From Gammaproteobacteria bacterium (GTDB taxonomy: Bacteria; Pseudomonadota; Gammaproteobacteria; Ga0077536), in contig JADLGE010000071.1 of the NCBI GenBank assembly GCA_020849475.1, forward strand, positions 18,753-82,752: a DNA stretch of 64,000 bases. Direction: 5' to 3'. Made by a program: the position numbers and the translations under genes. Within the stretch, counting starts at the first letter, position 1, and the number at the start of each line of letters is the position of its first letter. Below, in pieces: positions 9,190 to 62,575 of this stretch. Under the pieces are notes generated by a model, which made no database searches, was not told where the DNA came from, and saw nothing but the letters and a program-made list of their open reading frames with translations.

Positions 9190-9437
9190 CGAGGCTCTCG
9201 GCTATGGTCAATAGGCGGTCATTGCGGAGATTCCGACAATAATTCCCTAGCAAACTAGCAGAGCTTGGCGAGTTATTGCAAAAGCGGCGCTTACGGATGG
9301 CGAATACGCCATCATTCACTAACGCCGCCTCTTTATACTTCCCCCCGTTCGCGGTGCGCACTCGGCTGCCCTCTGGCAGCGGGCGAGGCCCCGGCATTCA
9401 ACGTCAACCGCGCCGCTGGCGCGTAGCAGGTAATCCC

Positions 9438-11117
9438 ATGAGCGCTTTCGATCATCGCAAGTACCGGCCCTATGCCCCCATCCAATTGCGCGACCGCACC
9501 TGGCCCGACCAGGTGCTGACGGCCGCGCCGCGCTGGTGCAGCGTCGATCTTCGCGACGGCAACCAGGCCCTGATCGAGCCCATGAACGTTGCCCAGAAAC
9601 TGCAGCTCTTTCAGCAGCTGGTGAAAGTCGGCTTCAAGGAAATCGAGATTGGTTTCCCGGCCGCCTCGCAGCCCGACTTCGACTTCGTACGGCGCCTGAT
9701 TGATGGCGGCCTGATCCCCGACGACGTCACCGTGCAGGTGCTGACCCAGGCCCGCGAGGAATTGATCGCGCGGTCGTTCGAAGCCCTGGCCGGCGTCAAG
9801 CGCGCCATCGTGCACTTGTACAACTCGACCTCGACAGTGCAGCGCGAGCAGGTGTTCGAACTCGATCGCGCAGGCATCAAGGGCATTGCCGTGCAGGGCG
9901 CGCAGTGGGTGAAGGCCCATGCCGCGCGACATCCTGCCACCGAGTGGATATTCCAGTACTCGCCCGAGAGCTTCACCGGCACCGAGCTCGATGTCGCGGT
10001 CGAGATCTGCGACGCGGTGGTCGAGGTGTGGCAACCGACGGCTGCCAAGCCCTGCATCCTGAATCTGCCCTCGACGGTCGAGATGGCGACGCCCAATGTC
10101 TATGCCGATCAGATTGAATGGTTCTGCCGCCATGTGCAGCATCGCGACGCGGTCATCATCAGTCTGCACACCCATAACGATCGCGGCTGTGCCGTCGCAG
10201 CAGCGGAACTCGCGACCATGGCCGGCGCGCAGCGCGTGGAAGGCACCTTGCTCGGCAACGGCGAGCGCACCGGCAACATGGACATCGTGACCATGGGCAT
10301 GAATCTTTACAGCCAGGGCATCGATCCCGAGCTCGACTTCTCGCGCATGGACGAAATCATCCGCTGCGTGAAAGAAACCACCCAGTTGCCGGTGCATCCG
10401 CGTCATCCCTATGCGGGCGAACTGGTGTTCACGGCGTTCTCCGGCAGTCACCAGGATGCGATCAAGAAATGCCTGGCCAAGCGCGACGATCGTCAGCCCT
10501 GGGAAGTGGCCTACCTGCCCATCGATCCGGCCGATCTCGGGCGCTCCTACCAGGAGGTCATCCGCATCAACAGCCAGTCGGGCAAGGGCGGCATCGCCTA
10601 TGTGCTGGAGCAAAGCCAGGGCTATCAGTTGCCGCGCTGGTTGCAGATAGACTTCAGCAGCGTGGTGCAGAAATACGCCGAGGACAGCGCCACCGAGGTC
10701 GAACCGCGCAAGATTGTCGAGCTCTTCGAGCAGCATTACGTGAGTGCGCGCACGCCCTATGAATTGATGGGCTACCAGGCGACGCGCGAGCACGGCGAGG
10801 ATCGCCTGGTCGCCAACCTGCGAGACAACGGCAAGGCCACCAGCCTGCAGGGCAATGCCAGCGGCGTGGTCGGCGCCTTCGTCGATGCACTCGAGCGCCA
10901 CACCGGCAAGAAACTGGTGCTGGTCGAATACAGCGAGCACACGCTCTCCAGCAGCGGCGGCGCGGGTGCGGAAGCCGTGGCCTATGTGCAGTTGAACCTC
11001 GACGGCAGCCGCTACTGCGGCGTCGGCCGCAGCAGCGACATCGTCGAGGCCTCACTGCGCGCGATCCTGGGCGCGGTCAATCAGCGCGCACGGCTGGCGC
11101 CGGGGGTGGCGGCCTGA
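9438..11117 (+). CDS. leuA: 2-isopropylmalate synthase, long (LeuA type 2) form
   Basis: 560 aa from ATG 9438; DLRDGNQ, HTHNDRG, LLGNGERTGN motifs and C-terminal LeuA regulatory domain. Confidence 0.92.
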   Translation: MSAFDHRKYRPYAPIQLRDRTWPDQVLTAAPRWCSVDLRDGNQALIEPMNVAQKLQLFQQLVKVGFKEIEIGFPAASQPDFDFVRRLIDGGLIPDDVTVQVLTQAREELIARSFEALAGVKRAIVHLYNSTSTVQREQVFELDRAGIKGIAVQGAQWVKAHAARHPATEWIFQYSPESFTGTELDVAVEICDAVVEVWQPTAAKPCILNLPSTVEMATPNVYADQIEWFCRHVQHRDAVIISLHTHNDRGCAVAAAELATMAGAQRVEGTLLGNGERTGNMDIVTMGMNLYSQGIDPELDFSRMDEIIRCVKETTQLPVHPRHPYAGELVFTAFSGSHQDAIKKCLAKRDDRQPWEVAYLPIDPADLGRSYQEVIRINSQSGKGGIAYVLEQSQGYQLPRWLQIDFSSVVQKYAEDSATEVEPRKIVELFEQHYVSARTPYELMGYQATREHGEDRLVANLRDNGKATSLQGNASGVVGAFVDALERHTGKKLVLVEYSEHTLSSSGGAGAEAVAYVQLNLDGSRYCGVGRSSDIVEASLRAILGAVNQRARLAPGVAA

Positions 11118-11357
11118 GTCAGGCCATAGGCGTAACGGGCTGTCGAAGACGACGGCCCGACATCGCTCCTCCGGCGCGGGTTGGCAGAATGTGAAGTACT
11201 TCCGAAATCGACGGTGGCTTGCTTCAAATGCGGTAACGCATACTCCAGACCACGGTGACACCTGCCACCGCGCCTGCACTGCCAGCATGGCCGACCGCCA
11301 TGAACTCGGCTCGAGGGCCGTGGATTTCGAAACCGAATCTACCGAGGAGCAGTCCCC

Positions 11358-12014
11358 ATGACCGTACATCGCCCACTCGCCGCGGCTGTATTGGCCATGG
11401 CTATTCTAGCCGGTCCCGCCGTTCACGCCGCGCCGGTCGCCATCGTCAACGCCAGCTTTGAAGCTGACGTATTCGGCGACGGCGGCTTCAACCTTACCGC
11501 GCCCAGCGGCTGGACCAACATCGGCGGCACCAGCGTCGGCACCTTCAATCCCCTTGTCAGCCAATTGGTCGCGCCGACTGACGGCGTGCAGGTGCTCTAC
11601 ATCAATGGCACGGGTGACGTTCGCCAGACCTTGGCGGATACCGTCGCCGTCGGCACTTACACGCTGAGCGCCGACTTCGCGTTCCGCAAGGACTGCTGCG
11701 GTACTGGCGACTTCACAATGTCGCTGTTGGCAGGGGGCGACACGCTTGCCAGCGTGACCGGCGGACTGGCCTCTGGCTTCAGCAGTACCGCATTCAAGAC
11801 CGCCGAGTTCAGTGTGGACGTGGTCGCAGGCGCAGCAGGCATCGGCGCACCCCTCGTCATACGCTTCCAGACCACGGCCGGCCAGACCGACATCGACAAT
11901 GTGCGACTGGATTTCGCAGCCGCGGCGCCCGTGCCGGTGCCGGCCAGCGCCTGGCTGCTGCTCCCCGCGCTCGCAGGTCTTGGCCGACTCGCTCGACGCA
12001 AAGCCCACGCCTGA
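11358..12014 (+). CDS. Secreted protein with VPLPA-CTERM / PEP-CTERM-like C-terminal sorting signal
   Basis: Signal peptide; mature N-terminus IVNASFE typical of PEP-CTERM cargo; C-terminus VPVPASAWLLLPALAGLGRLARRKAHA (motif + TM helix + basic tail). Confidence 0.7.
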   Translation: MTVHRPLAAAVLAMAILAGPAVHAAPVAIVNASFEADVFGDGGFNLTAPSGWTNIGGTSVGTFNPLVSQLVAPTDGVQVLYINGTGDVRQTLADTVAVGTYTLSADFAFRKDCCGTGDFTMSLLAGGDTLASVTGGLASGFSSTAFKTAEFSVDVVAGAAGIGAPLVIRFQTTAGQTDIDNVRLDFAAAAPVPVPASAWLLLPALAGLGRLARRKAHA

Positions 12015-12039
12015 ACGAGACCGCTCTCAGCTTCGACAA

Positions 12040-12069
12040 CCCCGGCCGCGCGCCGGGGTTTTTGTTTTG
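12040..12069 (+). terminator. Rho-independent terminator
   Basis: ccccggccgcgcgccgggg hairpin followed by tttttgtttt. Confidence 0.7.
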
Positions 12070-12160
12070 ATGACAGCTTACGCAAGCCGAGCCTTGCCGC
12101 CTTGATTGGCAAGCCACGGCGCGGCGGCGAGAATGGCGCACCGCCCGCTACTCACCGCCG

Positions 12161-14635
12161 ATGTCCGATCCACAACCCATAGACGCCGTCCTGCCCGAGT
12201 TGCTCGCGAGCCTCGCCGTGCAGCCGCGCGTGGTGCTGGAAGCGCCGCCCGGCGCCGGCAAGACCACGCGCGTGCCACTGGCCTTGCTCAAGGCTTCATG
12301 GTGCACGGGCAAAGTCTTGATGTTGGAACCCCGCCGCATCGCCGCGCGCGCCGCGGCCGGCTTCATGGCCGCGCAACTCGGCGAGGCGGTCGGCGAGACG
12401 GTCGGCTATCGCATCCGCTTCGAGCGCAAAGTCTCGGCGCGCACCCGCGTTGAAATCGTCACCGAAGGCATTCTCACGCGCATGCTGCAGGATGACCCGC
12501 TGCTCGACGGTGTGTCGGCGGTGGTGTTCGATGAATTCCACGAGCGTCATCTCGCCAGCGATCTCGGCCTTGCGATGTGTCTCGAAGTGCAGGCTGGCGT
12601 GCGGCCGGAGCTGCGCCTGGTGGTGATGTCGGCGACTTTGGATGGCGAGCGCCTCGCGAGCTACATGGATGCGCCGCGGGTGACGTCGGAAGGCCGCAGC
12701 TTTCCGGTGGACGTAAGTTACCTACCGCTGCAGGCGCGCGAAACGCCGGCGCTGCAATTCAAGCGCGCCGTGCGCCAGGCCTTGCTTGAGACCGACGGCG
12801 ACCTGTTGTGTTTCCTGCCGGGCAAGGCCGAAATCGAACGCTCGGCGCGGCTGCTCGATGACCTCGAGGCGCCGGTGGATATCCTCCACGGCGAGCTCGG
12901 CATGGAGGAACAAGCGCGCGTGCTGCGCCCGTCGAGCACGCGTCGCATCGTGCTTGCCACCAATGTCGCTGAATCGAGCGTCACTCTGCCCGGCGTACGC
13001 GCCGTCATCGACAGCGGCCTCGCCCGCGAACCGCGCTTCGATGCCGCCAGCGGCATGAGTCGTCTTGAAACCGTCAATATCGCGCAGTCCTCGGCGCGTC
13101 AGCGCGCCGGCCGCGCCGGACGTGTCGCCGCCGGCCGCTGCTATCGCCTGTGGTCGCCGTCGACGGTGCTGGATAATGCCGCGCGCCCCGAGATCCAGTG
13201 CGTCGAGCTGTCGTCACTGGCGCTGGAAATGAAAGTGTGGGGCTCGAACGAACTGCGTTTTCTCGACGCACCGCCTGCCGGCGCGCTGGCGCAGGCGCAC
13301 GATCTCCTGCGTGCGCTCGACGCGCTGGATGACGACGGGCGCATCACCGCCCACGGCAACGCCCTGCTCGCGCTCGGCGCCCATCCACGTCTTGCCAACG
13401 CCATGCTGCGCGCGCCCAAGGGCTGGCGCGGCCTCGCCTGCGATGTCGCCGCGCTGATCGAAGGGCGCGATCCGATGCTGGGTGAAGCGCGTCGCAATGA
13501 CGACCTGCGCGTGCGCCTCGCCGCGCTCCATGCGCAGCGCAGCGGGCACGGCGCGGGTAGCGACGTGCACCGTGGCGCGCTCGCGACCCTCGCGCAGGCC
13601 GCGCGGCAGTGGCGCGCGCGTTTGAAAATAGAGGAAGGACACGACGCGACGCGCGACCTCCACGCCCTCGGCGACGTGCTGGCGCTGGCCTATCCCGATC
13701 GCATCGCGCACCAGGACGACAACAATCCGCAGCGCTACGTGATGGCCAACGGCCGCGGCGCACAGCTCGGCGCGCAATCGAGCCTGGTGGGCGAAGCGTG
13801 GCTCGTGATAGCTGAACTGCGCTTCGACGCGCGCGACAGCCTCATACAACGCGCCGCACCGTGTGCGCTGGCATTTCTCGAACAGACCTATCCCAGCCAT
13901 TTCACGCGGCAACGCAAGCGCGCGTTCAACCCCGCCACCCGCGCCGTCGAGGAAAGCGAAGAGACGCGCTTCGCCGCCATCGTGCTCGAGCGTCGCACGC
14001 GGCCGGTGGCGCGTGACGCTGAAACCGCCGCGCTACTGGCTGAAGGCGTCGCGAGCCTGGGACTCGATGGCCTGCCGTGGAGCGATGCCTTGCGCGAATG
14101 GCAGGCGCGGGTGGTCAATCTGCGCGCCTGGTGTCCTGAACTGGCTTTGCCCGATGTCTCCGACGCGGCATTGTTGGCGAGCGCCGATAGCTGGCTCACG
14201 CCGCTGTTCGACGGCAAGGCACGCCTGTCGGACCTCGGCAGCGGCGATCTCGCCCACGCCCTCCATCAGCAACTCGACTATGCCCAGCGCCGCGCCCTCG
14301 ATGAACACGCGCCCGAGCAGCTCACCGTGCCCAGCGGCATGCAGCGCAAGCTCGACTACGCCATCGGTGAACCGCCGGTGCTGGCAGTGAAACTGCAGGA
14401 AATGTTCGGTCTCGCCGAGACCCCGCGCATCGCTCGCGGCCGCGTGCCGGTGCTGCTGCATCTCTTATCGCCACGCCAGACACCGCTGCAGGTGACGCAG
14501 GATCTGAAAGGCTTCTGGGAGCGCACCTACCCGGAAGTCAAAAAAGAAATGAAGGGCCGCTATCCCAAGCATCCGTGGCCCGACGATCCGTGGACCGCGA
14601 CCGCTACCCATCGCGCCAAGCCGCGCGGCACCTGA
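12161..14635 (+). CDS. hrpB: ATP-dependent RNA helicase HrpB
   Basis: 824 aa; DEAH-box helicase motifs (GAGKTT, DEFHER, SATL), HA2 and HrpB C-terminal domain. Confidence 0.92.
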   Translation: MSDPQPIDAVLPELLASLAVQPRVVLEAPPGAGKTTRVPLALLKASWCTGKVLMLEPRRIAARAAAGFMAAQLGEAVGETVGYRIRFERKVSARTRVEIVTEGILTRMLQDDPLLDGVSAVVFDEFHERHLASDLGLAMCLEVQAGVRPELRLVVMSATLDGERLASYMDAPRVTSEGRSFPVDVSYLPLQARETPALQFKRAVRQALLETDGDLLCFLPGKAEIERSARLLDDLEAPVDILHGELGMEEQARVLRPSSTRRIVLATNVAESSVTLPGVRAVIDSGLAREPRFDAASGMSRLETVNIAQSSARQRAGRAGRVAAGRCYRLWSPSTVLDNAARPEIQCVELSSLALEMKVWGSNELRFLDAPPAGALAQAHDLLRALDALDDDGRITAHGNALLALGAHPRLANAMLRAPKGWRGLACDVAALIEGRDPMLGEARRNDDLRVRLAALHAQRSGHGAGSDVHRGALATLAQAARQWRARLKIEEGHDATRDLHALGDVLALAYPDRIAHQDDNNPQRYVMANGRGAQLGAQSSLVGEAWLVIAELRFDARDSLIQRAAPCALAFLEQTYPSHFTRQRKRAFNPATRAVEESEETRFAAIVLERRTRPVARDAETAALLAEGVASLGLDGLPWSDALREWQARVVNLRAWCPELALPDVSDAALLASADSWLTPLFDGKARLSDLGSGDLAHALHQQLDYAQRRALDEHAPEQLTVPSGMQRKLDYAIGEPPVLAVKLQEMFGLAETPRIARGRVPVLLHLLSPRQTPLQVTQDLKGFWERTYPEVKKEMKGRYPKHPWPDDPWTATATHRAKPRGT

Positions 14636-33069: not shown

Positions 33070-33273
33070 GGTCTTCCTTTGAGCGCCTTATGTCCTGCCG
33101 TGGCTCGCGCGGCCCCTCACGCTTGTTTAAGCTTTAGCGAAAGGGCGCCCAGCATGGGCTTCACAGGTTGAGATCAACGGAAGATGCGCCGATAACTTGA
33201 GCGCGAGCCCACTGACCCCTGCTCGTCCGCGCGACGCCGGATGGTCCGGCGCACCCCATTGGAGAACCATTGC

Positions 33274-34257
33274 GTGTCACAACGCCCCCTCGAAAACATC
33301 ACCGAACCGCGCCTGCGCGCGACCGCCGCCGGCGAGGCCCAGCGCGCCCTGCTGGCAACGGTCATCAAGACCGCCGAGCAGGTGGTGTTCGGCAAATCCA
33401 ACGAGATTCGCCTGGCGCTGGCCTGCCTGCTGGCGCGCGGCCATCTGTTGATTGAAGACCTGCCGGGGGTCGGCAAGACCACCCTCGCGCACTTGCTGGC
33501 GCGCCTCATGGGCGTCGAATTCCAACGCATCCAGTTCACCAGCGATCTGTTGCCGGCCGATGTGCTGGGCGTCTACGTCTACGAGCGCGACGCCGCGCGC
33601 TTCACGTTTCACCCCGGCCCGGTGTTCACCAACGTCGTGCTGGCCGATGAAATCAACCGCGCCACGCCGCGCGCCCAGAGTGCGCTCCTGGAGGCGATGG
33701 AAGAACGGCAGGTGACGATAGAGAACGAAACCCATGGGCTGCCGCAGCCGTTCTTCGTCATCGCCACCCAAAATCCCAGCGATCAGATAGGCACCTTCGC
33801 GCTGCCGGAGTCGCAGCTCGATCGATTTCTCATGTGCATTTCCCTGGGCTACCCCGACCGCCGCGCCGAGCGCGCGCTGCTGAAAGCGCCGGACCGCCGC
33901 GCGGCACTGTCGGAACTCGCGCCGGTGCTGTCGCGCGAGGATTTGCTCGAACTGCAGGACAAGGTCGATGGTGTGCATGTCAGCGATGCACTGCTCGACT
34001 ACGTGCAGGACTTGCTCGACTACAGCCGCCGCGCGCCGCAGTTCGGCTGTGGCCTGTCGCCGCGCGCCGGCCTGGCCTTGCTGCGCGCGGCGCGCGCCTG
34101 GGCCTTGATCGACGGGCGCAACCACGTGCTGCCCGATGACATCCAGGCGGTGCTGGCGAGCGTGGCCGTGCACCGCGTGCGGCCGCTCGATGCCTCGCGC
34201 GGTGTGGATGCGGCCTTCATACGCGAGCAACTCGCCAACGCCGTGCCGATCCCGTGA
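33274..34257 (+). CDS. MoxR-like AAA+ ATPase
   Basis: GTG 33274 placed 8 nt after GGAGA (alternative ATG 33241); Walker A GVGKTT, Walker B VVLADEINRA. Confidence 0.88.
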   Translation: MSQRPLENITEPRLRATAAGEAQRALLATVIKTAEQVVFGKSNEIRLALACLLARGHLLIEDLPGVGKTTLAHLLARLMGVEFQRIQFTSDLLPADVLGVYVYERDAARFTFHPGPVFTNVVLADEINRATPRAQSALLEAMEERQVTIENETHGLPQPFFVIATQNPSDQIGTFALPESQLDRFLMCISLGYPDRRAERALLKAPDRRAALSELAPVLSREDLLELQDKVDGVHVSDALLDYVQDLLDYSRRAPQFGCGLSPRAGLALLRAARAWALIDGRNHVLPDDIQAVLASVAVHRVRPLDASRGVDAAFIREQLANAVPIP

Positions 34258-35219
34258 GCGCCGTCACCGCGCGGGCCGCGCGGCCCGCGCAACAGCGCCT
34301 GGACAGGCGACAGGTCTATATCTTCCCGACCGCGGCGGGCGTGACCTTCGGCTTCATGCTCGGCGTCATCCTGATCGGCGCCATCAACTACGACAACGCC
34401 TTGGGCTACCTGCTGGCCTTTCTGCTGTTCGGCCTGGTGTTGGTGGCGATGCTGCACACCTATCGCAATCTCAACGGCCTCATTTATCGCGGTGCGCGCG
34501 CGCTGCCGGTGCATGCCGGCAGTGATGCGCTGTTTGAATGCCAGTTCGAGAATTCGTCGCCCTTAGCGCGCCTCGCCCTGCGACTCGGGCCATGGCCACG
34601 CGGCATGGACAAACTGACGCGACGGTTCATGCAAAGCACCCACACGGCCATGGACATCGCGCCTGGCATCGTCGCCAATGTCGGCGTGCCGCGCCTGACC
34701 GAGAAGCGCGGCTGGACAACCCTCGGCCGGCTGCGCGTCGAAAGCGTCTATCCCTTGGGCATTCTGCGCGCCTGGGCCTATTTCGACGGCGACAGCCAAT
34801 GCCTCGTCTATCCCGCGCCGCGCGGCCATCTGCCGCTGCCGTTCGCGCCCGCCACCGCCAGCGGGCTGACGCAGTTGCACGGTGTGGGCAGCGATGAATT
34901 CGCCGGACTGCGGCCCTACACGCCGGGCGATCCGGTGCGCGCCATCGCGTGGAAGACCCTCGCCCGCGAACGCGAGGTGATGGTCAAACGCTTCCACGGC
35001 CAGGGCGCGCTGCGCGTACTGTTGTCGTGGTCGGCGGTCGCTTCATTGGCCGGCGCCGAGCCGCGCCTGTCGCAGCTGTGTCAGTGGGTGCTGGAAGCGC
35101 ATGGCGCCGGCCACAGTTACGCACTCGAACTGCCGGGCGTGTCGGTGGGCTTTGGCCACGGCCGCGAGCACCGTGATGAATGTCTGCGCGTGCTCGCGCT
35201 GTACGAGGCGCCGCCGTGA
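34254..35219 (+). CDS. DUF58 family protein (MoxR partner)
   Basis: Overlaps moxR stop by 4 nt; two N-terminal TM helices; DUF58 core (GSDEFAGLRPYTPGD). Confidence 0.8.
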   Translation: MSAVTARAARPAQQRLDRRQVYIFPTAAGVTFGFMLGVILIGAINYDNALGYLLAFLLFGLVLVAMLHTYRNLNGLIYRGARALPVHAGSDALFECQFENSSPLARLALRLGPWPRGMDKLTRRFMQSTHTAMDIAPGIVANVGVPRLTEKRGWTTLGRLRVESVYPLGILRAWAYFDGDSQCLVYPAPRGHLPLPFAPATASGLTQLHGVGSDEFAGLRPYTPGDPVRAIAWKTLAREREVMVKRFHGQGALRVLLSWSAVASLAGAEPRLSQLCQWVLEAHGAGHSYALELPGVSVGFGHGREHRDECLRVLALYEAPP

Positions 35220-37189
35220 ATCCCACGCCCTTGAGCGCGCGCGAAGTGCTGTGGGTGGCGGTGGTGCTGCTGCTCGCGCTGTTGCCGCACATGCCGCGCT
35301 TTCCGCTGATTCTCGACGCGGGCTTCGTGCTGGCCTGCGGCTGGCGCTACCTCGGCGCGCAGGGCGTGCTGCCCTTGCCGGACCGCGAGCACCGCCTGCT
35401 GTGGTTGTTGAAGCAATTGCTGGCCATCACGGCCTTCGTCACCATCTACATCGCGTTTCGCGGCAAGCTCGGTCGCGATGCCGGTGTCGAACTGCTGGCC
35501 GCGCTGCTGGGTTTGAAACTGCTGGAGATGCGCAGCCCGCGCGATTACTACGTGGTGACCTTGCTGTGCTATTTCCTGGTGGTCACCAATTTCTTTTATG
35601 CGCAGACCATTCCAACCGCGCTCTACATGCTCGGCGTGGTGATTGCCGCGACCGCGGTGCTCATTCAATACAACACGCCGCCCGCCTATCGCCAGCCGCG
35701 CGCCATGCTGCGCCTGTCGGCGCTGATGACCGCGCAGTCGATACCGCTGATGCTGCTCGCCTTCGTGCTGTTTCCGCGCATCCCGGGGCCGCTGTGGGGC
35801 ATGCCGCAGGACGCCTTCGATGCGGTGACGGGCCTCTCCGACAGCATGACGGTCGGCGACATCACGCGCCTCGGCATGTCGAACGAAATCGCATTTCGCG
35901 TGCAGTTCCACGGCCCGGAGCCGCGTGCCCGCGCGCGCTACTGGCGCGGCCCGGTGCTGTGGCACAGCGACGGCCGCGCCTGGCAGGTCGGCGCCTTTGC
36001 CGACCATCCGGCGCCGCTCGAGCATCATGGCCAGCGCTATCTCTACACCGTCACCATGGAGCCTCACCGCAAGCACTGGCTGCTGGGCCTCGATGTCGTC
36101 ACCGCCAAACCGCGCGACGTCATGCAGACCGCCGACTATGCCTTGAAGACCCGCCAGCCGCTGCGCACGCGCATGCGCTACGACCTCGAGTCGGCCATCG
36201 AATATCGCATGACGGGATTAAGCGACGCGGAGCGGCGCGCCGCCCTCGAAATTCCTCGTGGCCACCATCCCCGCGCACGTGAGCTCGGGGCGCAGTGGCG
36301 CGCCGAGACCCGTCAAGAGGATGCCATCATCGCGCGTGCGCTGGATTTCTATCGCGCCGGCAAGTTCGTCTATTCACTGACGCCGCCGACCCTGCCCGGC
36401 GACACCGTCGATGACTTCCTGTTCACGACACACGAAGGCTTCTGTGAACACTTCGCGTCGAGCTTCGTCATGCTCATGCGCGCGGCCGGCATTCCGGCGC
36501 GCGTCGTCACCGGCTACCAGGGCGGTGAATACAACGAAGTGGGTGAATACATGGTGGTGCGTCAGCGCGACGCCCACGCCTGGGCCGAGGTCTATCTCGA
36601 CGGGCGCGGCTGGGCACGTGTCGACCCGACCGCCACCGTCGCGCCCAACCGCGTATCGCTCGGCTTTGCCGATGCCAATCCGCGCGGCGCACCGGGCACG
36701 GGCTTTGCGCGTGATGCCTTGAGCGGCCGCGTGTGGACGCGCCTGCGCGATTCCTTCGACGCCATCACCTATGGCTGGAATCAATGGGTGCTGGGCTATA
36801 CCACGGCGCAACAGCGCAACCTGTTCGAAGAACTCGGCTTCGAAGACCTCGACTACGGCTCGTTGGTGATAGCGCTCACGCTGGCGCTCGCGTTGACCAC
36901 CGGCGCGCTGGCCTGGCTCATGTGGCGCGCGACACGTCGGCCGCGCGATCCGCTCAGCGCCGCCTATGGGACCTTCTGCGCCAGGCTCGCACGCATCGGC
37001 TTCACGCGCGGTGCGAGCGAAGCGCCGCTGGCGTTTGCGGAAAGGGTCTGCCGGCTGCGCGGAGATCTGGCCGACGAAGTGCGCGCCATCACGCGGCTGT
37101 ATGGTCTCTTGCGCTACGGACGCGGCGGTGTGGATGTGAAAGTGCTGCGGCGAAAAGTGGCTAATTTCAGGCCGAAGCGACAGGTGTGA
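35180..37189 (+). CDS. Transglutaminase-like / DUF3488 membrane protein (TgpA-like)
   Basis: Multi-TM N-terminal half, transglutaminase core with Cys/His (GFCEHFASSF...AHAWAEVYLDGRGWARVDPT); in-frame GTG 35216 overlapping DUF58 stop is an alternative start. Confidence 0.8.
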   Translation: MSARARAVRGAAVNPTPLSAREVLWVAVVLLLALLPHMPRFPLILDAGFVLACGWRYLGAQGVLPLPDREHRLLWLLKQLLAITAFVTIYIAFRGKLGRDAGVELLAALLGLKLLEMRSPRDYYVVTLLCYFLVVTNFFYAQTIPTALYMLGVVIAATAVLIQYNTPPAYRQPRAMLRLSALMTAQSIPLMLLAFVLFPRIPGPLWGMPQDAFDAVTGLSDSMTVGDITRLGMSNEIAFRVQFHGPEPRARARYWRGPVLWHSDGRAWQVGAFADHPAPLEHHGQRYLYTVTMEPHRKHWLLGLDVVTAKPRDVMQTADYALKTRQPLRTRMRYDLESAIEYRMTGLSDAERRAALEIPRGHHPRARELGAQWRAETRQEDAIIARALDFYRAGKFVYSLTPPTLPGDTVDDFLFTTHEGFCEHFASSFVMLMRAAGIPARVVTGYQGGEYNEVGEYMVVRQRDAHAWAEVYLDGRGWARVDPTATVAPNRVSLGFADANPRGAPGTGFARDALSGRVWTRLRDSFDAITYGWNQWVLGYTTAQQRNLFEELGFEDLDYGSLVIALTLALALTTGALAWLMWRATRRPRDPLSAAYGTFCARLARIGFTRGASEAPLAFAERVCRLRGDLADEVRAITRLYGLLRYGRGGVDVKVLRRKVANFRPKRQV

Positions 37190-39198: not shown

Positions 39199-40092
39199 AT
39201 GTCCGAATTGCATCCCATCGTGGCCGTCACCGGTTCGTCCGGGGCCGGCACCAGCAGCGTCAAGACTGCCTTCGAGCGCATCTTTCAGCGCGAGGGCATC
39301 AATCCGGCCGTCATCGAGGGCGACAGCTTCCATCGCTACGATCGCAAGCAGATGGCGTGGGAGGTCGAGAAGGCCGCCCTGCAAGGCAAGACCCTCACCC
39401 ACTTCGGCCCCGACGGCAATCTGCTCGGCGAACTCGAAACCCTGTTCCGCACCTACGGCGACAACGGCAGCGGCAAGCGCCGCTACTATGTGCACACCAC
39501 CAAGGAATCGAAGCGCCTGGAGAGCAAACCCGGCAGCTTCACCGAATGGCAGCCCTTGCCGCGCGACACCGACCTGTTGTTCTACGAGGGCCTGCATGGC
39601 GGCTTCATGGGCGACGAGGCCAATATCGCGCGCTTCGTCGATTTGCTGGTCGGGGTGGTGCCGATCATCAACCTCGAATGGATACAGAAGATTCACCGTG
39701 ACCGCGCGGTGCGCGGCTACTCGGCTGAGGCCGCCACCCAGATGATCCTGCGGCGCATGCCCGATTACGTGCATTACATCTGCCCGCAGTTCTCGCGCAC
39801 CGACGTCAATTTTCAGCGCGTGCCGACCATCGACACCTCCAATCCCTTCACCGCCAGCGAGATCCCGAGCAACGACGAGAGCATGGTGGTGGTAAAGATT
39901 GCCAACCGGCGCAAGATCAACCCGGATTACCGCTACCTGCTGGAAATGCTGCAGGGCTCGTTCATGTCGCGCCCGGACACCATTGTGGTGCCGGCGGACA
40001 AGATGGTGTTCGCCATGGAGCTGCTGTTGAACCCGGTCATCGAACGCATGATGGAGCGGCGTGATCAGGCGGTGAAACAAAGCGCGGCCTGA
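39199..40092 (+). CDS. prk: Phosphoribulokinase
   Basis: 297 aa; N-terminal P-loop VAVTGSSGAGTSSV; strong similarity to bacterial PRK from memory. Confidence 0.88.
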   Translation: MSELHPIVAVTGSSGAGTSSVKTAFERIFQREGINPAVIEGDSFHRYDRKQMAWEVEKAALQGKTLTHFGPDGNLLGELETLFRTYGDNGSGKRRYYVHTTKESKRLESKPGSFTEWQPLPRDTDLLFYEGLHGGFMGDEANIARFVDLLVGVVPIINLEWIQKIHRDRAVRGYSAEAATQMILRRMPDYVHYICPQFSRTDVNFQRVPTIDTSNPFTASEIPSNDESMVVVKIANRRKINPDYRYLLEMLQGSFMSRPDTIVVPADKMVFAMELLLNPVIERMMERRDQAVKQSAA

Positions 40093-55891: not shown

Positions 55892-56024
55892 TTGAATGCC
55901 AGGCTGAAGCCTGCCCCACAAAGCGCCCTCGTCGACTGTTGAAACCCATTGTGGGTCAGACTTCAGTCTGACATTCGCATTGATTGGCGCGCCTGCGAAT
56001 GTGCGAATGAATTCGCACCTACAA
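55892..56024. repeat. REP-like composite element (unit A x2 plus unit B aatgtgcgaatgaattcgcacct)
   Basis: ttgaatgccaggctgaagcctgcccca ... tgtgggtcagacttcagtctgacattc ... gtgcgaatgaattcgcac. Confidence 0.85.
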
Positions 56025-56408
56025 ATTCTTCAGCCCCTTCGCCACCAGCGCCTGTTCAATCTGTTCGCGCTCGAAGCCTAAGAAGGTTTCGCCGCGCAGC
56101 ATGAGGATCGGCACCACCTTGTGCGCCTGCTCGGCAAAGCGACGCCTGCCCTCGCTGTCGGTCTCGACGTCGTACTCGCAATACTTGACGTTCTCGCCCG
56201 TGAGATAGCGCCGCGCCTGGCGGCAATAGCCGCACCAGGACGCGCTCAGCATCACCAGCGTGTCAGTGTCGGGGGTGAGTTCGTGACCGCAGCGTATCGG
56301 TGCTGGCGAGCGATTACTTACCATCTGAATCATGGCCCACAGGCCTATCACCACGACCAGCGCATAGGTCGGCAGGTTGTTGCGCGATGCTTTGCCAGGC
56401 TCAGCCAC
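56019..56408 (-). CDS. Membrane-anchored glutaredoxin-like (thioredoxin-fold) protein
   Basis: GTG start overlapping ATL stop; TM helix LPTYALVVVIGLWAMIQMV then SWCGYCRQA redox motif; alternative ATG starts at 56336/56327. Confidence 0.6.
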   Translation of the reverse strand: MAEPGKASRNNLPTYALVVVIGLWAMIQMVSNRSPAPIRCGHELTPDTDTLVMLSASWCGYCRQARRYLTGENVKYCEYDVETDSEGRRRFAEQAHKVVPILMLRGETFLGFEREQIEQALVAKGLKNL

Positions 56409-56730
56409 CGTAGTCCCACTCGTAACGCGTGAGGTCGATGCGCCCGAACGCGTCGAAGGCCACGCCTTCCAGCGCCAGGCGGTCGTATTGTTCGTTCGGC
56501 GCGTCACCGTCACCACGCGGACTGACGCCGCCTTTGACGTTGACCACCCGGTGCCAGGGCACGTCGCTGCCGGTCTTCAACGCGGCCAGGGCGTAGCCGA
56601 CCTGGCGCGCGCCGCTCGGTCCTTCGATGTGGGCCAGCGCCGCGACCTGCTTGTAGGTGGCGACGCGGCCGACCGGGATGGCGCTGACCACGGCCCACAC
56701 CCGCGCATTGCGACCCATGGCCTCACTCAT
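56401..56730 (-). CDS. Alkyltransferase-like protein (ATL; MGMT-fold DNA-binding, YbaZ-like)
   Basis: Active-site position reads PWHRVVN (Trp in place of Cys); C-terminus IDLTRYEWDY matches YbaZ recalled from memory; start at internal ATG 56730. Confidence 0.75.
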   Translation of the reverse strand: MSEAMGRNARVWAVVSAIPVGRVATYKQVAALAHIEGPSGARQVGYALAALKTGSDVPWHRVVNVKGGVSPRGDGDAPNEQYDRLALEGVAFDAFGRIDLTRYEWDYGG

Positions 56731-56752
56731 TGCTGCGCACGTGCCCGGCGCT

Positions 56753-57142
56753 TCAGCACTGCACATCCTTGTCGACCCGCGGCGGGTCGGACAATTCCAC
56801 GCGCACACCATGATGGGCCGCGCCGCGTGGCTTCAGACACATGAGCACGGTGCGCTGCGCGACCCAGGTCAGGCCTATCTGGCGACCTGAGAATGGCGTG
56901 CCGTCGTTGGCGAGCTCGGTGCTCACCACCGGTGCGCCGGCCGCCATGCCGCGCGGCACGAGATAGAGATGGATTTGATCGGCGCCGTCGCTGCCGCGGG
57001 CCGCGACCCGCGTCACGCGCAGCAGGTAATCGCCGTCAGGCGAGGCGAATTCACTCAAGGTTTCTTCCGGCGCGTCGCCGCAAGCGCAGAGCAGGGCCAG
57101 CAGTGCGGCGCCCATGCCCCACCGCTGCGGCCGTCGTTTCAT
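56753..57142 (-). CDS. Putative lipoprotein/secreted hypothetical protein
   Basis: Signal peptide with LLALLCACG. Confidence 0.5.
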   Translation of the reverse strand: MKRRPQRWGMGAALLALLCACGDAPEETLSEFASPDGDYLLRVTRVAARGSDGADQIHLYLVPRGMAAGAPVVSTELANDGTPFSGRQIGLTWVAQRTVLMCLKPRGAAHHGVRVELSDPPRVDKDVQC

Positions 57143-57405
57143 GGTTGTTCGTCGAGGGTCTTGGCGCGCGCGGCCTGGTAATCCTGGTAGCGACTGCGAT
57201 CAGGATGTTGCGAGTCGGCGCACTGGCTGGCGCGGGCCTGGGCGTCGCGCTGGTGGGCGCCGGCCTGCTGGCAGGCGTAGTTGTCGCCAACGTCATAGAA
57301 CAGCTGCTGCCAGCTTGCGGTGCTGCAGCCGCCGAGGCCGGTCAGCATCGCGACCAGGCACAGCCGTCGCAACGGACTTGATCTCACGAAATGCTCAGCG
57401 CGCAC
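57139..57405 (-). CDS. Small putative lipoprotein
   Basis: 88 aa, LTGLGGCS lipobox-like signal. Confidence 0.5.
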   Translation of the reverse strand: MRAEHFVRSSPLRRLCLVAMLTGLGGCSTASWQQLFYDVGDNYACQQAGAHQRDAQARASQCADSQHPDRSRYQDYQAARAKTLDEQP

Positions 57406-57781
57406 GCTCGTGACGCGCGTCGAGAAAATCGACCCACGCTTCCCAGCGCTTGGTGTCGGATGGAAACTTGGGATGATCGAAACGGGCGATCACTACGTGT
57501 TCCGGTCCGGCGCGGTAGGCGATGGCGGCGACGAAGATCAAGCCATCCTTGTAGGCCTGACGCTGTTCGTCCGGCACGCTCTTGTGCGGCGTGTCGGACC
57601 ACAGACCATCCGCGCGCAGCGGCGCTATCCAGTTTTCAGCGTGATTGGCAGTGGTGCCGCGCAGCGTGCAGAAATACAGGCTGCCGTTCAATTTGTCGCC
57701 CGGGTCAAAAGCCAGGTCGTAGTTGTCGACGATGACGGCGTTGCTGAACTCGGCCGGCACGCTGTGCATTTGCGCGCTCAT
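57395..57781 (-). CDS. Hypothetical protein
   Basis: ATG 57781 8 nt after GGGAG; 128 aa; no recognised domain. Confidence 0.45.
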   Translation of the reverse strand: MSAQMHSVPAEFSNAVIVDNYDLAFDPGDKLNGSLYFCTLRGTTANHAENWIAPLRADGLWSDTPHKSVPDEQRQAYKDGLIFVAAIAYRAGPEHVVIARFDHPKFPSDTKRWEAWVDFLDARHERAR

Positions 57782-57876
57782 GAATGATGCTCCCGTGGGA
57801 CGATGCCGCGGCACCAGAGCCGCGGCGCAGACGGTGCACGCTAACCCAGGCGCAGCACCCGATCAATCCTGAAAGT

Positions 57877-58170
57877 TCAGGGTTTCAACTCCACTTCGAC
57901 GAACGACAAGAAATGATCGTTGGCGTTGATGACATTGTGCTCGACGCCGACATTGCGCGAATAGGACACGCCGACCTTGAGCTCGGCGCGCTTCTCGCCA
58001 TCCGGTGTTTCAAGCAGCAAGGTGCCATCGGTGAGCGGCACCACCACGTAATCATGGCCGTGCACATGCCAGCCGGTCTCGGCGCCGGGCGCAAAGCGCC
58101 ACTCGGTGACGATCACGCGCTCGTTCTCGAATTGTTTGACGCCTTCGGCCTGGGGACGGGACGGACTCAT
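57877..58170 (-). CDS. Cupin domain protein
   Basis: 97 aa, GWHVHGHDYVVVPLTDGTL cupin motif. Confidence 0.7.
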   Translation of the reverse strand: MSPSRPQAEGVKQFENERVIVTEWRFAPGAETGWHVHGHDYVVVPLTDGTLLLETPDGEKRAELKVGVSYSRNVGVEHNVINANDHFLSFVEVELKP

Positions 58171-58194
58171 GGGGACTCCTTGGGGTGAATGGGT

Positions 58195-58674
58195 TCAAGC
58201 GAGGGCCGTGGCATCGCTCCATGCCAGCGCCGGAAAACGTTCCACGCCTTCGGCAAGAAATTCGCCGAAGGCATCCATGCACACGCAATGACGGCGCGTG
58301 ATGCGCCAGCCGGCCGGCGTGAGCGCGAAAGTATCGTGGTAGGAGCCGCGCACTTCCCAGCGCGTCAAAGTGCCTTCCGGCAGGCGCTGCAAATGGGTGG
58401 CGATGACACGCGCGCTGGCGTGAGCGCTCTTGCCGGTGATTTCAATCATGGGCGGGGCGATCACATGGTTGGTCCAGTAGCACAAATCCAGAAACTGGCT
58501 GAAAGCCGCCACCGCACCGGCGCCGGTGCAATCGAAGACATGCCCCGACACTTCGTAGTGCAGCGCCGCGCTCGGCGTGAACACCTGCTCGAGATATTCG
58601 AAGCGCTTTTCGTCGATGGCGCGCGCATAGATGGCGTAGGTGTGCGAGATGGCGAGGTGAGCGTCGAGATCCAT
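58195..58674 (-). CDS. NTF2-like (SnoaL-like) protein
   Basis: 159 aa; fold call from composition/length. Confidence 0.55.
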   Translation of the reverse strand: MDLDAHLAISHTYAIYARAIDEKRFEYLEQVFTPSAALHYEVSGHVFDCTGAGAVAAFSQFLDLCYWTNHVIAPPMIEITGKSAHASARVIATHLQRLPEGTLTRWEVRGSYHDTFALTPAGWRITRRHCVCMDAFGEFLAEGVERFPALAWSDATALA

Positions 58675-58743
58675 GGTTCCCCCGGCTGGGCGACACCGCG
58701 TGCCGCGTCGGCGTCAGTGTAGGCGCGATGCGCGGGCGCGTCT

Positions 58744-59388
58744 TTAAAACTGCGCGGGACGCGGCAGCGCCAGCCACGCCTGCACCGACGGCCTTTGCCA
58801 TTGTGCACGCGCAAAGGCCGCCACCGCCGACGGCGTGGCGTCGCCGCTGTTCAACAGCCGCTGCAGCATCAGCGCGAGATCGGTATCGGCTATCGACCAC
58901 TCGTCGAACAACTGCGTGGCGCCGACCGGCAATATCGCTTCGACGAACGCACACAGGCGCTCGGCGTCACCATGCGCGGCATCGGTCAGTGGCGTGGTGA
59001 GCGGCGCGCCGAACACCGCGGTGGTCGGACGCGCCTCGCGCAATGCGCCGAGATCGCTGCGCAGCCAGGCCTGAATCTGCCGCGCACGGGCGCGCGCCTG
59101 ACGGCCCTGCGGATAGAGCGCGCGATAGCCCGGCGCCGGCAGCAGCTCTTCGAGATATTCGGCAATTGCCGATGACTCGCTGAGATGAAAATCAGCGTGA
59201 CTCAGCGTCGGCACGCGGCCGGTCAGGGAGTCGCGCAGGTAGTCCGGCGCGCGATGCGCGGCGGCGCGCAGGTCGACCAGGCGAGTTGTGAACGGCACGC
59301 CCTTTTCGGTCAGTGCAACGAAGGCCGACATGGCATAGGGACTGACGTGGCGGGCATCGACATACAAGACGAAAGGCGAGTCGGACAT
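58744..59388 (-). CDS. Glutathione S-transferase family protein
   Basis: 214 aa, GST N-terminal thioredoxin-like region (SPYAMSAFVALTEKGVPF). Confidence 0.75.
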   Translation of the reverse strand: MSDSPFVLYVDARHVSPYAMSAFVALTEKGVPFTTRLVDLRAAAHRAPDYLRDSLTGRVPTLSHADFHLSESSAIAEYLEELLPAPGYRALYPQGRQARARARQIQAWLRSDLGALREARPTTAVFGAPLTTPLTDAAHGDAERLCAFVEAILPVGATQLFDEWSIADTDLALMLQRLLNSGDATPSAVAAFARAQWQRPSVQAWLALPRPAQF

Positions 59389-59445
59389 GACGGCGGGCGC
59401 TCCGGAGACAATGACAATGGGCGGCGGCGCGCGGGCCGTGCGCGC

Positions 59446-59853
59446 TCAGGGTAGAACGGTCGTGCAGTTGGATGTGCAGCGCGCAATCTGGCCGCGCAGG
59501 CGGTTGTAGAGTCCGTCGCAGACGCCACGCTTCGATTCACACAGCACCCGCGTGACCAAGGTCGGGTTGCCGTTCTTGAACACGATATCTCGACGCACGA
59601 CGGTCGGATAGGCCGGATGGCCCTTGGGCGCGAAGGTCCAGGTGGTGAAATCATCGCCGGCTTCGTCGGTGATGATGGTCCAACCGCTGTGGTCGGCGCT
59701 CTGCACATCGGGCTTGGCGGCGAGGGCCTTGCGCGCGGCGCTGACCGACGCGTAGCCGATACCGCTGACGGTGGTCTGCGCGTGCGCGGCATCGGGCATG
59801 AAGCCCACGGCGAGCACGAGCAGCAGAAAGTGTTGGCGAAATTGACGGCGCAT
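59446..59853 (-). CDS. Secreted hypothetical protein
   Basis: Signal peptide LLLVLAVGFMPDAAHA; 4 Cys in C-terminal part. Confidence 0.5.
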   Translation of the reverse strand: MRRQFRQHFLLLVLAVGFMPDAAHAQTTVSGIGYASVSAARKALAAKPDVQSADHSGWTIITDEAGDDFTTWTFAPKGHPAYPTVVRRDIVFKNGNPTLVTRVLCESKRGVCDGLYNRLRGQIARCTSNCTTVLP

Positions 59854-59951
59854 GGCGAACTTCCCGGGCCGGCACGAAAGAATCAGCGGCAGCCGGCCAC
59901 TAGTCGGTCAAGGATAGCCGCTTTCAGGCACGCGCAGGAACGTCGGGGAGC

Positions 59952-60593
59952 TCAGGGCGTGGCGATGGCCGCCAGCTGGCGGTCATGCCAGCGCGTCAGC
60001 AGCAGCAAAGCGGCGCCGGCGCCGAGCAGCGCGCAAAACATATCCCATTGCGTGTCCCACACATCGCCCTGGGTGCCGAGGAACTGGTCAGCGCCCTGGC
60101 CCAGGATCAGCGCCGCCGCCCATTCGATCAACTCGTAGGAAGCGCTCACCGCCAGCACGATGGCGATGCAAATGAAAGCCAGCATGCGCCGTCCGCGCAC
60201 ATAGGCGCCGCGCAGCAGGATCTCACGCGCCACCATCACCGGCACGAAGCCCTGGAAAAGATGCCCGATGCGGTCATAGGGGTTGCGTTCAAGGTGCAGC
60301 ATTTGCGCGAGCTCGAAACCGAGAGGCACGCGCGCATAGGTGTAGGCGCCGCCCAGCATCAGCACGCAGGCGTGCAGGAAGATGAGGGTGTAAACGAGCG
60401 TGGTGAGCGGCAGTCGGCGATAGGTGAAGGCCATGAGCGGCACGGCCAGCAGCACCGGCATCACTTCCATGAGCCAGGTGCCGCGATCGTAGGGCGCGAC
60501 ACCGGACCACACCAGCAAGGCCAGCAGCGCAAGCGCCGCTCCGACCAGGCGCCGCTCGCGCGCGCCATCTGGCGCCGATGTATGCGTCACCAT
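59952..60593 (-). CDS. DUF2238-like integral membrane protein
   Basis: Start at internal ATG 60593 (MVTHTSAP...), overlapping upstream gene by 7 nt; ~6 TM helices. Confidence 0.6.
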   Translation of the reverse strand: MVTHTSAPDGARERRLVGAALALLALLVWSGVAPYDRGTWLMEVMPVLLAVPLMAFTYRRLPLTTLVYTLIFLHACVLMLGGAYTYARVPLGFELAQMLHLERNPYDRIGHLFQGFVPVMVAREILLRGAYVRGRRMLAFICIAIVLAVSASYELIEWAAALILGQGADQFLGTQGDVWDTQWDMFCALLGAGAALLLLTRWHDRQLAAIATP

Positions 60594-60922: not shown

Positions 60923-60947
60923 GACATTCCTGGCTGTCGGTCGGCGT

Positions 60948-61553: not shown

Positions 61554-61581
61554 TGTGCGCGTCTCCATGGGGGCCAAGCGT

Positions 61582-62040: not shown

Positions 62041-62095
62041 TGCAGAAAGTCCCTTGGAAACACGCGGCAGTTCAATTCAGGCCTGCGTGTCGCAT

Positions 62096-62527: not shown

Positions 62528-62575
62528 GATGGCGCTCTCCTGTTCGCTGGCAATGGACGGTCTTTACGAAGCGCG

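What the first reader, a model, noticed from the sequence alone, without database searches (positions are those of the whole stretch)
11358..12014. Orphan VPLPA/PEP-CTERM-type sorting-signal protein
The C-terminus VPVPASAWLLLPALAGLGRLARRKAHA has the motif-helix-basic tail layout of PEP-CTERM/VPLPA-CTERM sorting domains that exosortases process. The mature N-terminus begins IVNASFE, typical of such cargo. No exosortase, EpsH or polysaccharide locus is in the window. The gene lies between leuA and hrpB and ends with a clean terminator.
Basis: partly seen in the sequence, partly recalled or inferred. Interest (0 to 1): 0.5.

Follow-up and report, generated by a model that had tools for sequence, protein, structure and literature searches.

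The report
Secreted jelly-roll protein with exosortase-type tail
This is a real gene for a small exported protein whose C-terminal tag is of the kind that membrane enzymes called exosortases cut, and it belongs to a large known class, so it is ordinary.

Summary
The ORF at 11358-12014 (+) is a real 218-aa gene. It has a Sec-type signal peptide (residues 1-24) and an HpiC1-like, CBM-like beta-jelly-roll domain (PF22825, 91.9 bits against a cut-off of 27; AlphaFold pLDDT 92.9).

Its C-terminal tail is VPVPASAWLLLPALAGLGRLARRKAHA. The tail matches VPLPA-CTERM (TIGR03370) at E 1.9e-5, but its 24.6 bits fall 0.75 bit below the curated cut-off of 25.35. That probably explains why NCBI calls the protein (MCC6709213.1, Gammaproteobacteria MAG) "hypothetical".

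The cargo family is large: 1425 cluster representatives. Most are about 220 aa and end in xPEP or VP[LVI]PA tails, and canonical members pass TIGR03370. In the closest clade the tail is at least as conserved as the domain.

The window and 10 kb on each side in sister MAGs contain no exosortase. About 0.63 Mb flanking 79 homologous genes contains none either, so unlinked cargo genes are the norm, as Haft et al. described in 2006. A genuine XrtD sits next to VPLPA cargo in another metagenomic contig.

I could not test whether this MAG encodes an exosortase.

This is a new member of a known kind, of low interest.

The parts
11118..11357 (+). 240-nt upstream intergenic region with a conserved block (11188-11204), a perfect 10-bp palindrome GAAGTACTTC (11193-11202) and a GAGGAG ribosome-binding site at 11344-11349
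   Evidence: Sequence. The block and palindrome are conserved upstream of the 53%-identical orthologue in L007. The palindrome occurs nowhere else in 857 kb of fetched DNA. The region has no GG-N10-GC sigma-54 site, no sigma-70 consensus hit and no Rfam family.
11358..12014 (+). Coding sequence, 218 aa plus stop: an exported HpiC1-like/CBM-like protein with a VPLPA-type C-terminal sorting signal
   Evidence: GC3 is 0.77 and whole-gene GC is 0.66, against 0.65 for the window.
11358..11429 (+). Signal peptide, residues 1-24 (MTVHRP / LAAAVLAMAILAG / PAVHA; cleavage inferred after A24)
   Evidence: Direct reading of n-, h- and c-regions. A24 is conserved in at least 90% of 46 homologues. AlphaFold places a helix at residues 6-17. 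No SignalP-type tool was available.
11433..11912 (+). HpiC1-like beta-jelly-roll domain, residues 26-185, including the clade-invariant vicinal cysteines C113-C114 (11694-11699)
   Evidence: PF22825 at 91.9 bits against a cut-off of 27. The A1 profile hits Stig cyclase 5z53 at E 4.8e-36. The AlphaFold model has pLDDT 92.9. Foldseek ranks Stig cyclases first, then CBM22, CBM16 and porphyran- and alginate-binding CBMs. The cysteine pair is invariant in alignment A2.
11931..12011 (+). C-terminal sorting signal, residues 192-218: VPVPAS motif, short hydrophobic helix AWLLLPALAGLG, basic cluster RLARRK, then AHA
   Evidence: TIGR03370 matches residues 192-215 at 24.6 bits, E 1.9e-5. P193 and P195 are invariant or nearly so, and R213 is nearly invariant, across homologues. 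AlphaFold places a helix at 196-217. Tail identity is 73% against 63% for the domain in the closest four sequences.
12038..12070 (+). Intrinsic-terminator-like hairpin followed by a T-run

Best explanation
The gene encodes a small cell-envelope or matrix protein. Shown: it has a Sec-type N-terminal signal peptide, one HpiC1-like/CBM-like beta-jelly-roll domain, and a C-terminal tripartite signal of the VPLPA-CTERM flavour of the PEP-CTERM class. Inferred from what is known of the PEP-CTERM/exosortase class: the Sec pathway exports the protein, and the C-terminal helix holds it in the inner membrane with RLARRK on the cytoplasmic side. A polytopic membrane cysteine transpeptidase then cleaves it at or near VPVPAS. 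This enzyme is most likely an XrtD-type exosortase encoded elsewhere in the genome. The jelly-roll is then released or transferred to the cell surface or exopolysaccharide matrix, where it probably binds a glycan or another matrix component. The gene is a single-gene unit with its own upstream region and terminator, far from its processing enzyme, which is the usual arrangement for this class.
For: Domain: PF22825 at E 6.5e-26, a high-confidence model, and a fold shared with Stig cyclases and CBMs. Tail: the best NCBIfam hit is VPLPA-CTERM at E 1.9e-5. Of 156 homologues examined, about 75 end in xPEP tails and about 30 in VP[LVI]PA-type tails. One homologue carries a VPDSG-CTERM tail instead (PF18205), so the same cargo domain has repeatedly been paired with different exosortase signals. 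Canonical-tail homologues pass TIGR03370. A profile of this clade's tail retrieves proteins that PGAP names VPLPA-CTERM and that share the PVPLPASAWLLL signature. The tail is as conserved as the domain or more so (73% against 63% in the closest four; 55% against 53% in seven), while the signal peptide is less conserved (47% and 37%). The gene keeps its position between leuA and hrpB in sister MAGs and in a 53%-identical orthologue. The VPLPA/XrtD pairing is seen directly in L099: an XrtD (TIGR04152, 576 bits against a cut-off of 400, with an EpsI domain) lies 7 kb from three VPLPA-tailed genes, next to a PrsT-like TPR protein. Unlinked single-gene organisation is typical of the class (PMC1569441).
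Against: The tail is 0.75 bit below the curated TIGR03370 cut-off. The closest clade members (P0003, P0077, the L010 paralogue) do not hit the model at all at E <= 0.01. The hydrophobic segment is short (about 12-14 residues) and contains a proline. No exosortase was found in the window, in 10 kb on either side in sister MAGs, or in any fetched cargo locus other than L099. I could not examine the rest of this MAG. No sigma-54/PrsR-type promoter is present upstream. Cleavage, attachment and ligand binding have not been shown for any VPLPA-CTERM protein, to my knowledge.
Confidence: 0.8

Rival explanations
1. The tail is a plain C-terminal membrane anchor or a decaying relic. The lineage has no cognate exosortase, and the jelly-roll simply sits tethered to the inner membrane facing the periplasm.
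For: The score is sub-threshold (24.6 against 25.35), and the closest clade members miss TIGR03370 entirely. No exosortase appears anywhere in the roughly 84 kb I could inspect around the gene. Only one such tail exists in the window.
Against: The P-x-P-A-S...LL.P.L...R positions are invariant across clade members. The closest of them are only 55-60% identical overall, and the tail is more conserved than the signal peptide and at least as conserved as the domain. A generic anchor would drift as the signal-peptide core does. The PVPLPASAWLLL signature is shared with PGAP-named VPLPA-CTERM proteins.
Confidence: 0.1
2. The protein is an enzyme of the Stig-cyclase type, a secreted Ca-dependent terpenoid-indole cyclase or another small-molecule catalyst, rather than a binding module.
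For: The family profile matches hapalindole and fischerindole cyclases at E 4.8e-36, and they are the top structural matches. The catalytic acid D214 of HpiC1 (bioRxiv 10.1101/173674) aligns with D178 of this protein in the QTDIDNV strand, by my reading of the alignment.
Against: I saw no isonitrile-synthase or prenyltransferase genes among the window ORFs I scanned. The direct neighbours are housekeeping genes. The position aligned with D214 varies across the family (N, D, Y, E). The family has at least 1425 clusters, mostly about 220-aa proteins with sorting tails and including multi-domain surface proteins, which fits a binding or structural module from which the cyanobacterial cyclases branched. 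Below the cyclases, the nearest folds are mostly CBMs or CBM-like domains of glycoside hydrolases.
Confidence: 0.05
3. The ORF is a chance open frame in GC-rich DNA and not a gene.
For: A 200-aa antisense ORF overlaps it (11406-12008), as is usual in 65% GC DNA.
Against: The Pfam domain scores E 6.5e-26, there are 1425 homologous clusters, orthologues are conserved in synteny, and the gene has a ribosome-binding site and a terminator.
Confidence: 0.01

Closest known systems
VPLPA-CTERM sorting-domain proteins (NCBIfam TIGR03370) and their exosortase XrtD (TIGR04152)
   Same: The motif is V-P-[LV]-P-A at the start of a C-terminal helix, followed by a basic cluster within a few residues of the stop, on a protein with an N-terminal signal peptide. 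It shares the PVPLPASAWLLL signature with PGAP-named members. TIGR03370 is the best HMM hit.
   Different: The score is 24.6 against 25.35 bits. The helix is shorter and carries a proline (LLLPALAGLG) where canonical members have G/S-rich LLGSGLLGL. The closest clade members miss the model. The partner XrtD was not seen for this genome.
PEP-CTERM/exosortase (EpsH, XrtA) system of Haft et al. 2006, including the floc protein PepA (NF033554)
   Same: The architecture is tripartite. The gene is a single-gene unit with more than 200 nt upstream and lies away from the exosortase, and the cargo is fast-evolving (53% identity between syntenic orthologues). Many homologues of this cargo carry true PEP tails. 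There is weak similarity to PepA (19.7 bits).
   Different: The motif is VPVPA, not PEP. PF07589 is below its cut-off (14.1 against 20.7). The upstream region has no sigma-54 -24/-12 site and no TTTACA motif.
Stig cyclases HpiC1, FamC1 and FilC (Pfam PF22825; PDB 5WPP, 5YVK, 5Z53)
   Same: Clear sequence homology (profile E 4.8e-36) and the same fold (TM 0.64-0.68). Both have an N-terminal leader, the NxxFE first strand and the FDNVRL last strand.
   Different: The Stig cyclase chains matched (200-227 aa) end just after the FDNVRL strand, with no C-terminal tail. They act in hapalindole biosynthesis. This protein sits among housekeeping genes in a gammaproteobacterial MAG. Here the loop after R110 is shorter and holds a Cys-Cys pair.
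Carbohydrate-binding modules of the beta-jelly-roll type (CBM22, CBM16, CBM4/9-like, porphyran- and alginate-binding CBMs)
   Same: The fold is shared (Foldseek E 1e-7 to 1e-6). HpiC1 was itself noted to resemble a xylanase CBM with structural Ca2+.
   Different: Sequence similarity is not significant. This is a stand-alone module with a sorting tail, not appended to a glycoside hydrolase. The ligand is unknown.
LPXTG/sortase cell-wall anchoring in Gram-positive bacteria
   Same: The same logic applies: signal peptide, then a C-terminal motif, helix and basic tail processed by a membrane cysteine transpeptidase.
   Different: The enzyme family, motif and envelope type are unrelated. The attachment target of exosortase cargo is unknown.

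Membership tests
VPLPA-CTERM sorting domain (TIGR03370) | HMM score at or above the curated cut-off (25.35 bits) | tested here: not met
   The score is 24.6 bits, E 1.9e-5, over residues 192-215 and profile positions 1-24 of 25, a miss of 0.75 bit. Canonical-tail homologues score 28.0 and 32.3; clade members P0003 and P0077 give no hit.
VPLPA-CTERM sorting domain (TIGR03370) | VPLPA-like motif, then a hydrophobic helix, then a basic cluster, ending within a few residues of the stop codon | tested here: met
   The tail is VPVPAS / AWLLLPALAGLG / RLARRK / AHA-stop. AlphaFold places a helix at 196-217. The tail aligns column for column with canonical tails.
VPLPA-CTERM sorting domain (TIGR03370) | N-terminal signal peptide on the same protein | tested here: met
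   The n-, h- and c-regions have VHA at -3 to -1, and A24 is conserved in at least 90% of homologues. This was judged by inspection; no SignalP-type tool was available.
VPLPA-CTERM sorting domain (TIGR03370) | Cognate exosortase XrtD (TIGR04152) in the same genome | not testable with these tools
   There is none in the window or within 10 kb on either side in sister MAGs. The rest of the MAG could not be fetched. None of the 10 NCBI-sourced XrtD clusters inspected, out of the 120 best hits, carried an accession from this MAG's block.
VPLPA-CTERM sorting domain (TIGR03370) | Several proteins with the same tail in one genome | not testable with these tools
   The 64-kb window holds only one. A 47%-identical relative with the same tail type exists in another MAG of the same WGS accession series (L010).
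PEP-CTERM (PF07589 / TIGR02595) | HMM above cut-off and a Pro-Glu-Pro motif | tested here: not met
   PF07589 scores 14.1 against 20.7. TIGR02595 was not reported even at E <= 10. The motif is P-V-P, not P-E-P.
HpiC1-like domain (Pfam PF22825) | HMM above the gathering score, with the shared fold | tested here: met
   The score is 91.9 bits against 27 over residues 26-185, covering profile positions 2-174 of 174. Foldseek ranks HpiC1, FamC1 and FilC first at E 1e-11.
Stig cyclase (functional class) | Catalytic Asp equivalent to HpiC1 D214 in a hydrophobic pocket | tested here: inconclusive
   D178 aligns with D214 by my reading of the alignment. The column varies across the family, and pocket residues were not compared.
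Stig cyclase (functional class) | Location in a hapalindole-type biosynthetic cluster | tested here: not met
   The neighbours are leuA, hrpB, a GST, a nitroreductase and a LysR regulator.

The most novel reading that the evidence does not exclude
The small clade containing this protein may carry a distinct sorting signal. The clade has the window gene's close relatives P0002, P0003, P0077 and P0140 and the L010 paralogue. Its tail is invariant at P-x-P-A-S-x2-L-L-x-P-x-L and has a proline inside a very short helix, and the full-length members have a clade-specific vicinal Cys-Cys pair. Its tail falls below or outside the VPLPA-CTERM model. It could therefore be read by a dedicated or not-yet-modelled exosortase. 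Alternatively, the HpiC1-like cargo could be an extracellular catalyst with a redox-active vicinal disulfide rather than a passive binding module.
Probability: 0.08. Interest if true: 0.45.

Novelty: new member of a known kind. Interest (0 to 1): 0.15.

Why it matters
It matters little beyond annotation. The case shows how a curated cut-off missed by 0.75 bit leaves a clear exosortase-type cargo protein labelled "hypothetical". It also shows that the domain known from cyanobacterial Stig cyclases is mostly a widespread, roughly 220-aa surface or matrix module carrying PEP-CTERM-class tails. If the source MAG comes from activated sludge, which I only infer, such proteins are candidates for floc-matrix components like PepA. 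That would need experiments.

Tried and rejected
1. Exosortase in the window. NCBIfam on all multi-TM ORFs gave EamA, a histidine kinase, TgpA transglutaminase, HemX/HemY and others. tblastn with a genuine XrtD gave no hit at E <= 10.

2. Flanks beyond the window, read through sister MAG contigs. Both sides hold housekeeping genes only.

3. Obtaining an exosortase seed.
   - tblastn of the cargo against plasmids found no match.
   - The genome-contig scan returned one 6-kb contig.
   - The metagenome scan returned 79 loci with no exosortase.
   - A seed finally came from the context of a VPLPA-tailed hit (L099).

4. Finding this MAG's own exosortase through XrtD homologues. The top 120 hits were all at least 72% identical to the L099 query, and the few that carry an organism name are Steroidobacterales or Steroidobacteraceae. 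None of the 10 clusters I inspected had an MCC67... accession. This is unresolved.

5. A sigma-54/PrsR regulatory signature as in Haft 2006: absent.

6. A known RNA element in the 240-nt leader: none.

7. A first alignment (A1) was too diverse for locus searching.

8. Literature on VPLPA-CTERM or XrtD: essentially none in the held library. Haft 2012 is not held.

Full report
**Observation**

The ORF at 11358-12014 (+) is present as described: 218 aa, an ATG start and a GAGGAG ribosome-binding site 8 nt upstream. It lies between a 2-isopropylmalate synthase gene (9276-11117) and hrpB (12161-14635). A G+C-rich hairpin with a T-run follows at 12038-12070.

The exact protein is on record as NCBI MCC6709213.1, [quoted passage not shown], on a 91.8-kb contig. 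Sister MAGs (GCA_964267835.1, GCA_035909955.1) have a 218-aa HpiC1-like gene in the same position. A 53%-identical orthologue (P0003, locus L007) sits between genes of matching size and position, whose products were not annotated. A six-frame scan of the window found no other convincing motif, hydrophobic and basic C-terminus.

**What the protein is**

- **Residues 1-24** form a typical Sec signal peptide (MTVHRP, a hydrophobic core, then PAVHA). A24 is conserved in at least 90% of homologues.
- **Residues 26-185** match Pfam PF22825 (HpiC1-like) at 91.9 bits against a gathering score of 27.
- A profile of 46 family members hits the crystallised Stig cyclases at E 4.8e-36.
- An AlphaFold model (pLDDT 92.9) is a beta-sandwich between an N-terminal and a C-terminal helix.
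- Foldseek ranks Stig cyclases first (TM 0.64-0.68) and then mostly carbohydrate-binding modules or CBM-like domains of glycoside hydrolases: CBM22, CBM16 and porphyran- and alginate-binding CBMs. HpiC1 itself was described as CBM-like, with two structural Ca2+ ions and a catalytic D214 (bioRxiv 10.1101/173674).

**The tail**

NCBIfam's best hit for the whole protein is VPLPA-CTERM (TIGR03370), residues 192-215, E 1.9e-5. The 24.6 bits are 0.75 bit under the curated 25.35. PF07589 PEP-CTERM scores 14.1 against 20.7. This probably explains the "hypothetical" label.

The comparative evidence is stronger than the single score:

- phmmer against 1.84 billion representatives finds 1425 relatives (E <= 0.001), mostly 200-240 aa and aligned through to the tail.
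- Of 156 homologues inspected, about 75 end in xPEP tails and about 30 in VP[LVI]PA tails.
- One homologue has a VPDSG-CTERM tail recognised by PF18205.
- Canonical-tail homologues pass TIGR03370 (P0160 32.3 bits, P0164 28.0 bits).
- A profile of this clade's tail retrieves many proteins with the same PVPLPASAWLLL signature. Several are named VPLPA-CTERM by PGAP, from Paracoccus, Rhodosalinus, Psychrosphaera and gammaproteobacterial MAGs.
- Within the closest clade the tail is 73% identical, against 63% for the domain and 47% for the signal peptide. Across seven sequences the figures are 55%, 53% and 37%. This argues for sequence-specific recognition rather than a generic anchor.

The clade is nevertheless divergent. 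P0003, P0077 and the L010 paralogue do not hit TIGR03370 at E <= 0.01. The helix is short and contains a proline.

**The partner enzyme**

No exosortase lies in the window. NCBIfam and Pfam on all multi-TM ORFs found none, and tblastn with a genuine XrtD gave no hit at E <= 10. None lies within 10 kb on either side in sister MAGs.

The same holds for the family at large. About 0.63 Mb around 79 metagenomic homologues contains no exosortase. This matches Haft et al. 2006. They found that more than 65% of PEP-CTERM genes are single-gene units with more than 200 nt upstream. They also found that PEP-CTERM and EpsH co-occur by phylogenetic profile, genome by genome (abstract). "Orphan" is therefore the expected state.

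A bona fide XrtD was found in contig L099. It scores 576 bits on TIGR04152 against a cut-off of 400 and has a C-terminal EpsI domain. It lies 7 kb from three VPLPA-tailed genes, next to a PrsT-like TPR protein and a glycosyltransferase. This shows the pairing in nature.

XrtD homologues are abundant: at least 7989 at E <= 1e-20. The best 120 were all at least 72% identical to the L099 query, and the few with an organism name are Steroidobacterales or Steroidobacteraceae. None of the 10 clusters inspected could be tied to this MAG. Whether this genome encodes an exosortase remains untested here.

**Regulation**

The 240-nt leader lacks a sigma-54 -24/-12 site and the TTTACA motif reported for proteobacterial PEP-CTERM genes. 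It has no sigma-70 consensus hit and no Rfam match.

It does contain a block conserved with the 53%-identical orthologue. The block includes a perfect palindrome GAAGTACTTC (11193-11202), which occurs nowhere else in 857 kb of fetched DNA. This may be an operator.

**Mechanism**

Shown: the ORF, the signal peptide features, the domain and fold, the tail architecture and its conservation, and the single-gene organisation.

Inferred from the PEP-CTERM/exosortase literature and NCBIfam family definitions: Sec export; retention by the C-terminal helix with RLARRK in the cytoplasm; cleavage or transfer at VPVPAS by an XrtD-type exosortase encoded elsewhere; and delivery of a Ca-stabilised jelly-roll to the surface or exopolysaccharide matrix, where it probably binds a glycan.

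I give about 0.8 to "exosortase-class cargo". Within that, I give roughly 0.6 to XrtD being the enzyme.

**Rivals**

- **A relic or plain anchor (0.1).** The sub-threshold scores favour it; tail conservation disfavours it.
- **A Stig-cyclase-like enzyme (0.05).** D178 aligns with catalytic D214. However, that column varies in the family, the genomic context is housekeeping, and most of the nearest non-cyclase folds are CBMs.
- **A chance ORF.** Refuted.

**Comparison and novelty**

The protein is a firm member of PF22825. It works like a VPLPA-CTERM protein, although it narrowly fails the curated cut-off. It is not a PEP-CTERM protein in the strict sense.

I class it as a new member of a known kind, of low interest. 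The only mildly novel aspect is the clade-specific tail variant and the invariant vicinal Cys-Cys (C113-C114). These could mark a distinct sorting flavour or a redox or ligand site. I give that about 8%.

Noticed in passing
window 11188-11204 (palindrome 11193-11202): A perfect 10-bp palindrome GAAGTACTTC sits inside a block conserved upstream of the 53%-identical orthologue in L007 (position 623). It is absent from the other 857 kb of fetched DNA. It may be an operator for an unknown regulator, about 155 nt before the start codon.
   Followed up: partly
window 11694-11699 (residues C113-C114): A vicinal Cys-Cys pair in the motif DFA[FY]R[KL][DN]CC is invariant in the seven closest homologues and absent from the wider family. 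These are the only cysteines in the mature protein. A vicinal disulfide at a loop next to the conserved R110 is possible.
   Followed up: partly
L010 3654-4349 (MAG SJ706, JADZCB010000178.1): A 47%-identical relative with the same tail type (PVPVPASGLLLLPALGWL...) lies in a different context, between a PQQ-dependent quinohaemoprotein alcohol dehydrogenase and an acyl-CoA ligase. PQQ alcohol dehydrogenases are themselves known for a vicinal disulfide (my own knowledge). This is probably coincidence.
   Followed up: no
L099 9172-18888: This is an XrtD locus in an uncultured bacterium whose closest named XrtD relatives are Steroidobacterales. It holds XrtD fused to an EpsI domain, a Glycos_transf_4 protein, an 809-aa PrsT-like TPR protein, a 679-aa protein with a weak GlyGly-CTERM-like hit (20 bits), and two FxDxF-family VPLPA-CTERM proteins plus a short tailed ORF.
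   Followed up: partly
window 33241-37189: An operon of a MoxR-type AAA ATPase, a 321-aa gene with no NCBIfam hit, and a TgpA-like membrane transglutaminase (TgpA_N, Transglut_core and DUF4129).
   Followed up: partly
window 39199-40092: A phosphoribulokinase gene (NF011997, 466 bits), which hints at Calvin-cycle capacity in this uncultured gammaproteobacterium.
   Followed up: no
window about 55900-64000, minus strand: A run of about 20 small genes with slightly lower GC3: glutaredoxin, an MGMT-like DNA-binding protein, cupin, SnoaL, GST, DUF2238, an acetyltransferase, DUF3465, a polyketide-cyclase-like protein, WapI and F420H2-quinone-reductase-like. The same run occurs in sister MAG contig L003.
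   Followed up: no
L093 8382-11079 and L096 8141-10261: VPLPA-CTERM genes can occur in small tandem clusters of three or four tailed genes in a row. In Rhodosalinus sp. FB01 the cluster lies beside Wzy-like, Wzx-like and GT2 polysaccharide genes, yet no exosortase lies within 10 kb.
   Followed up: partly
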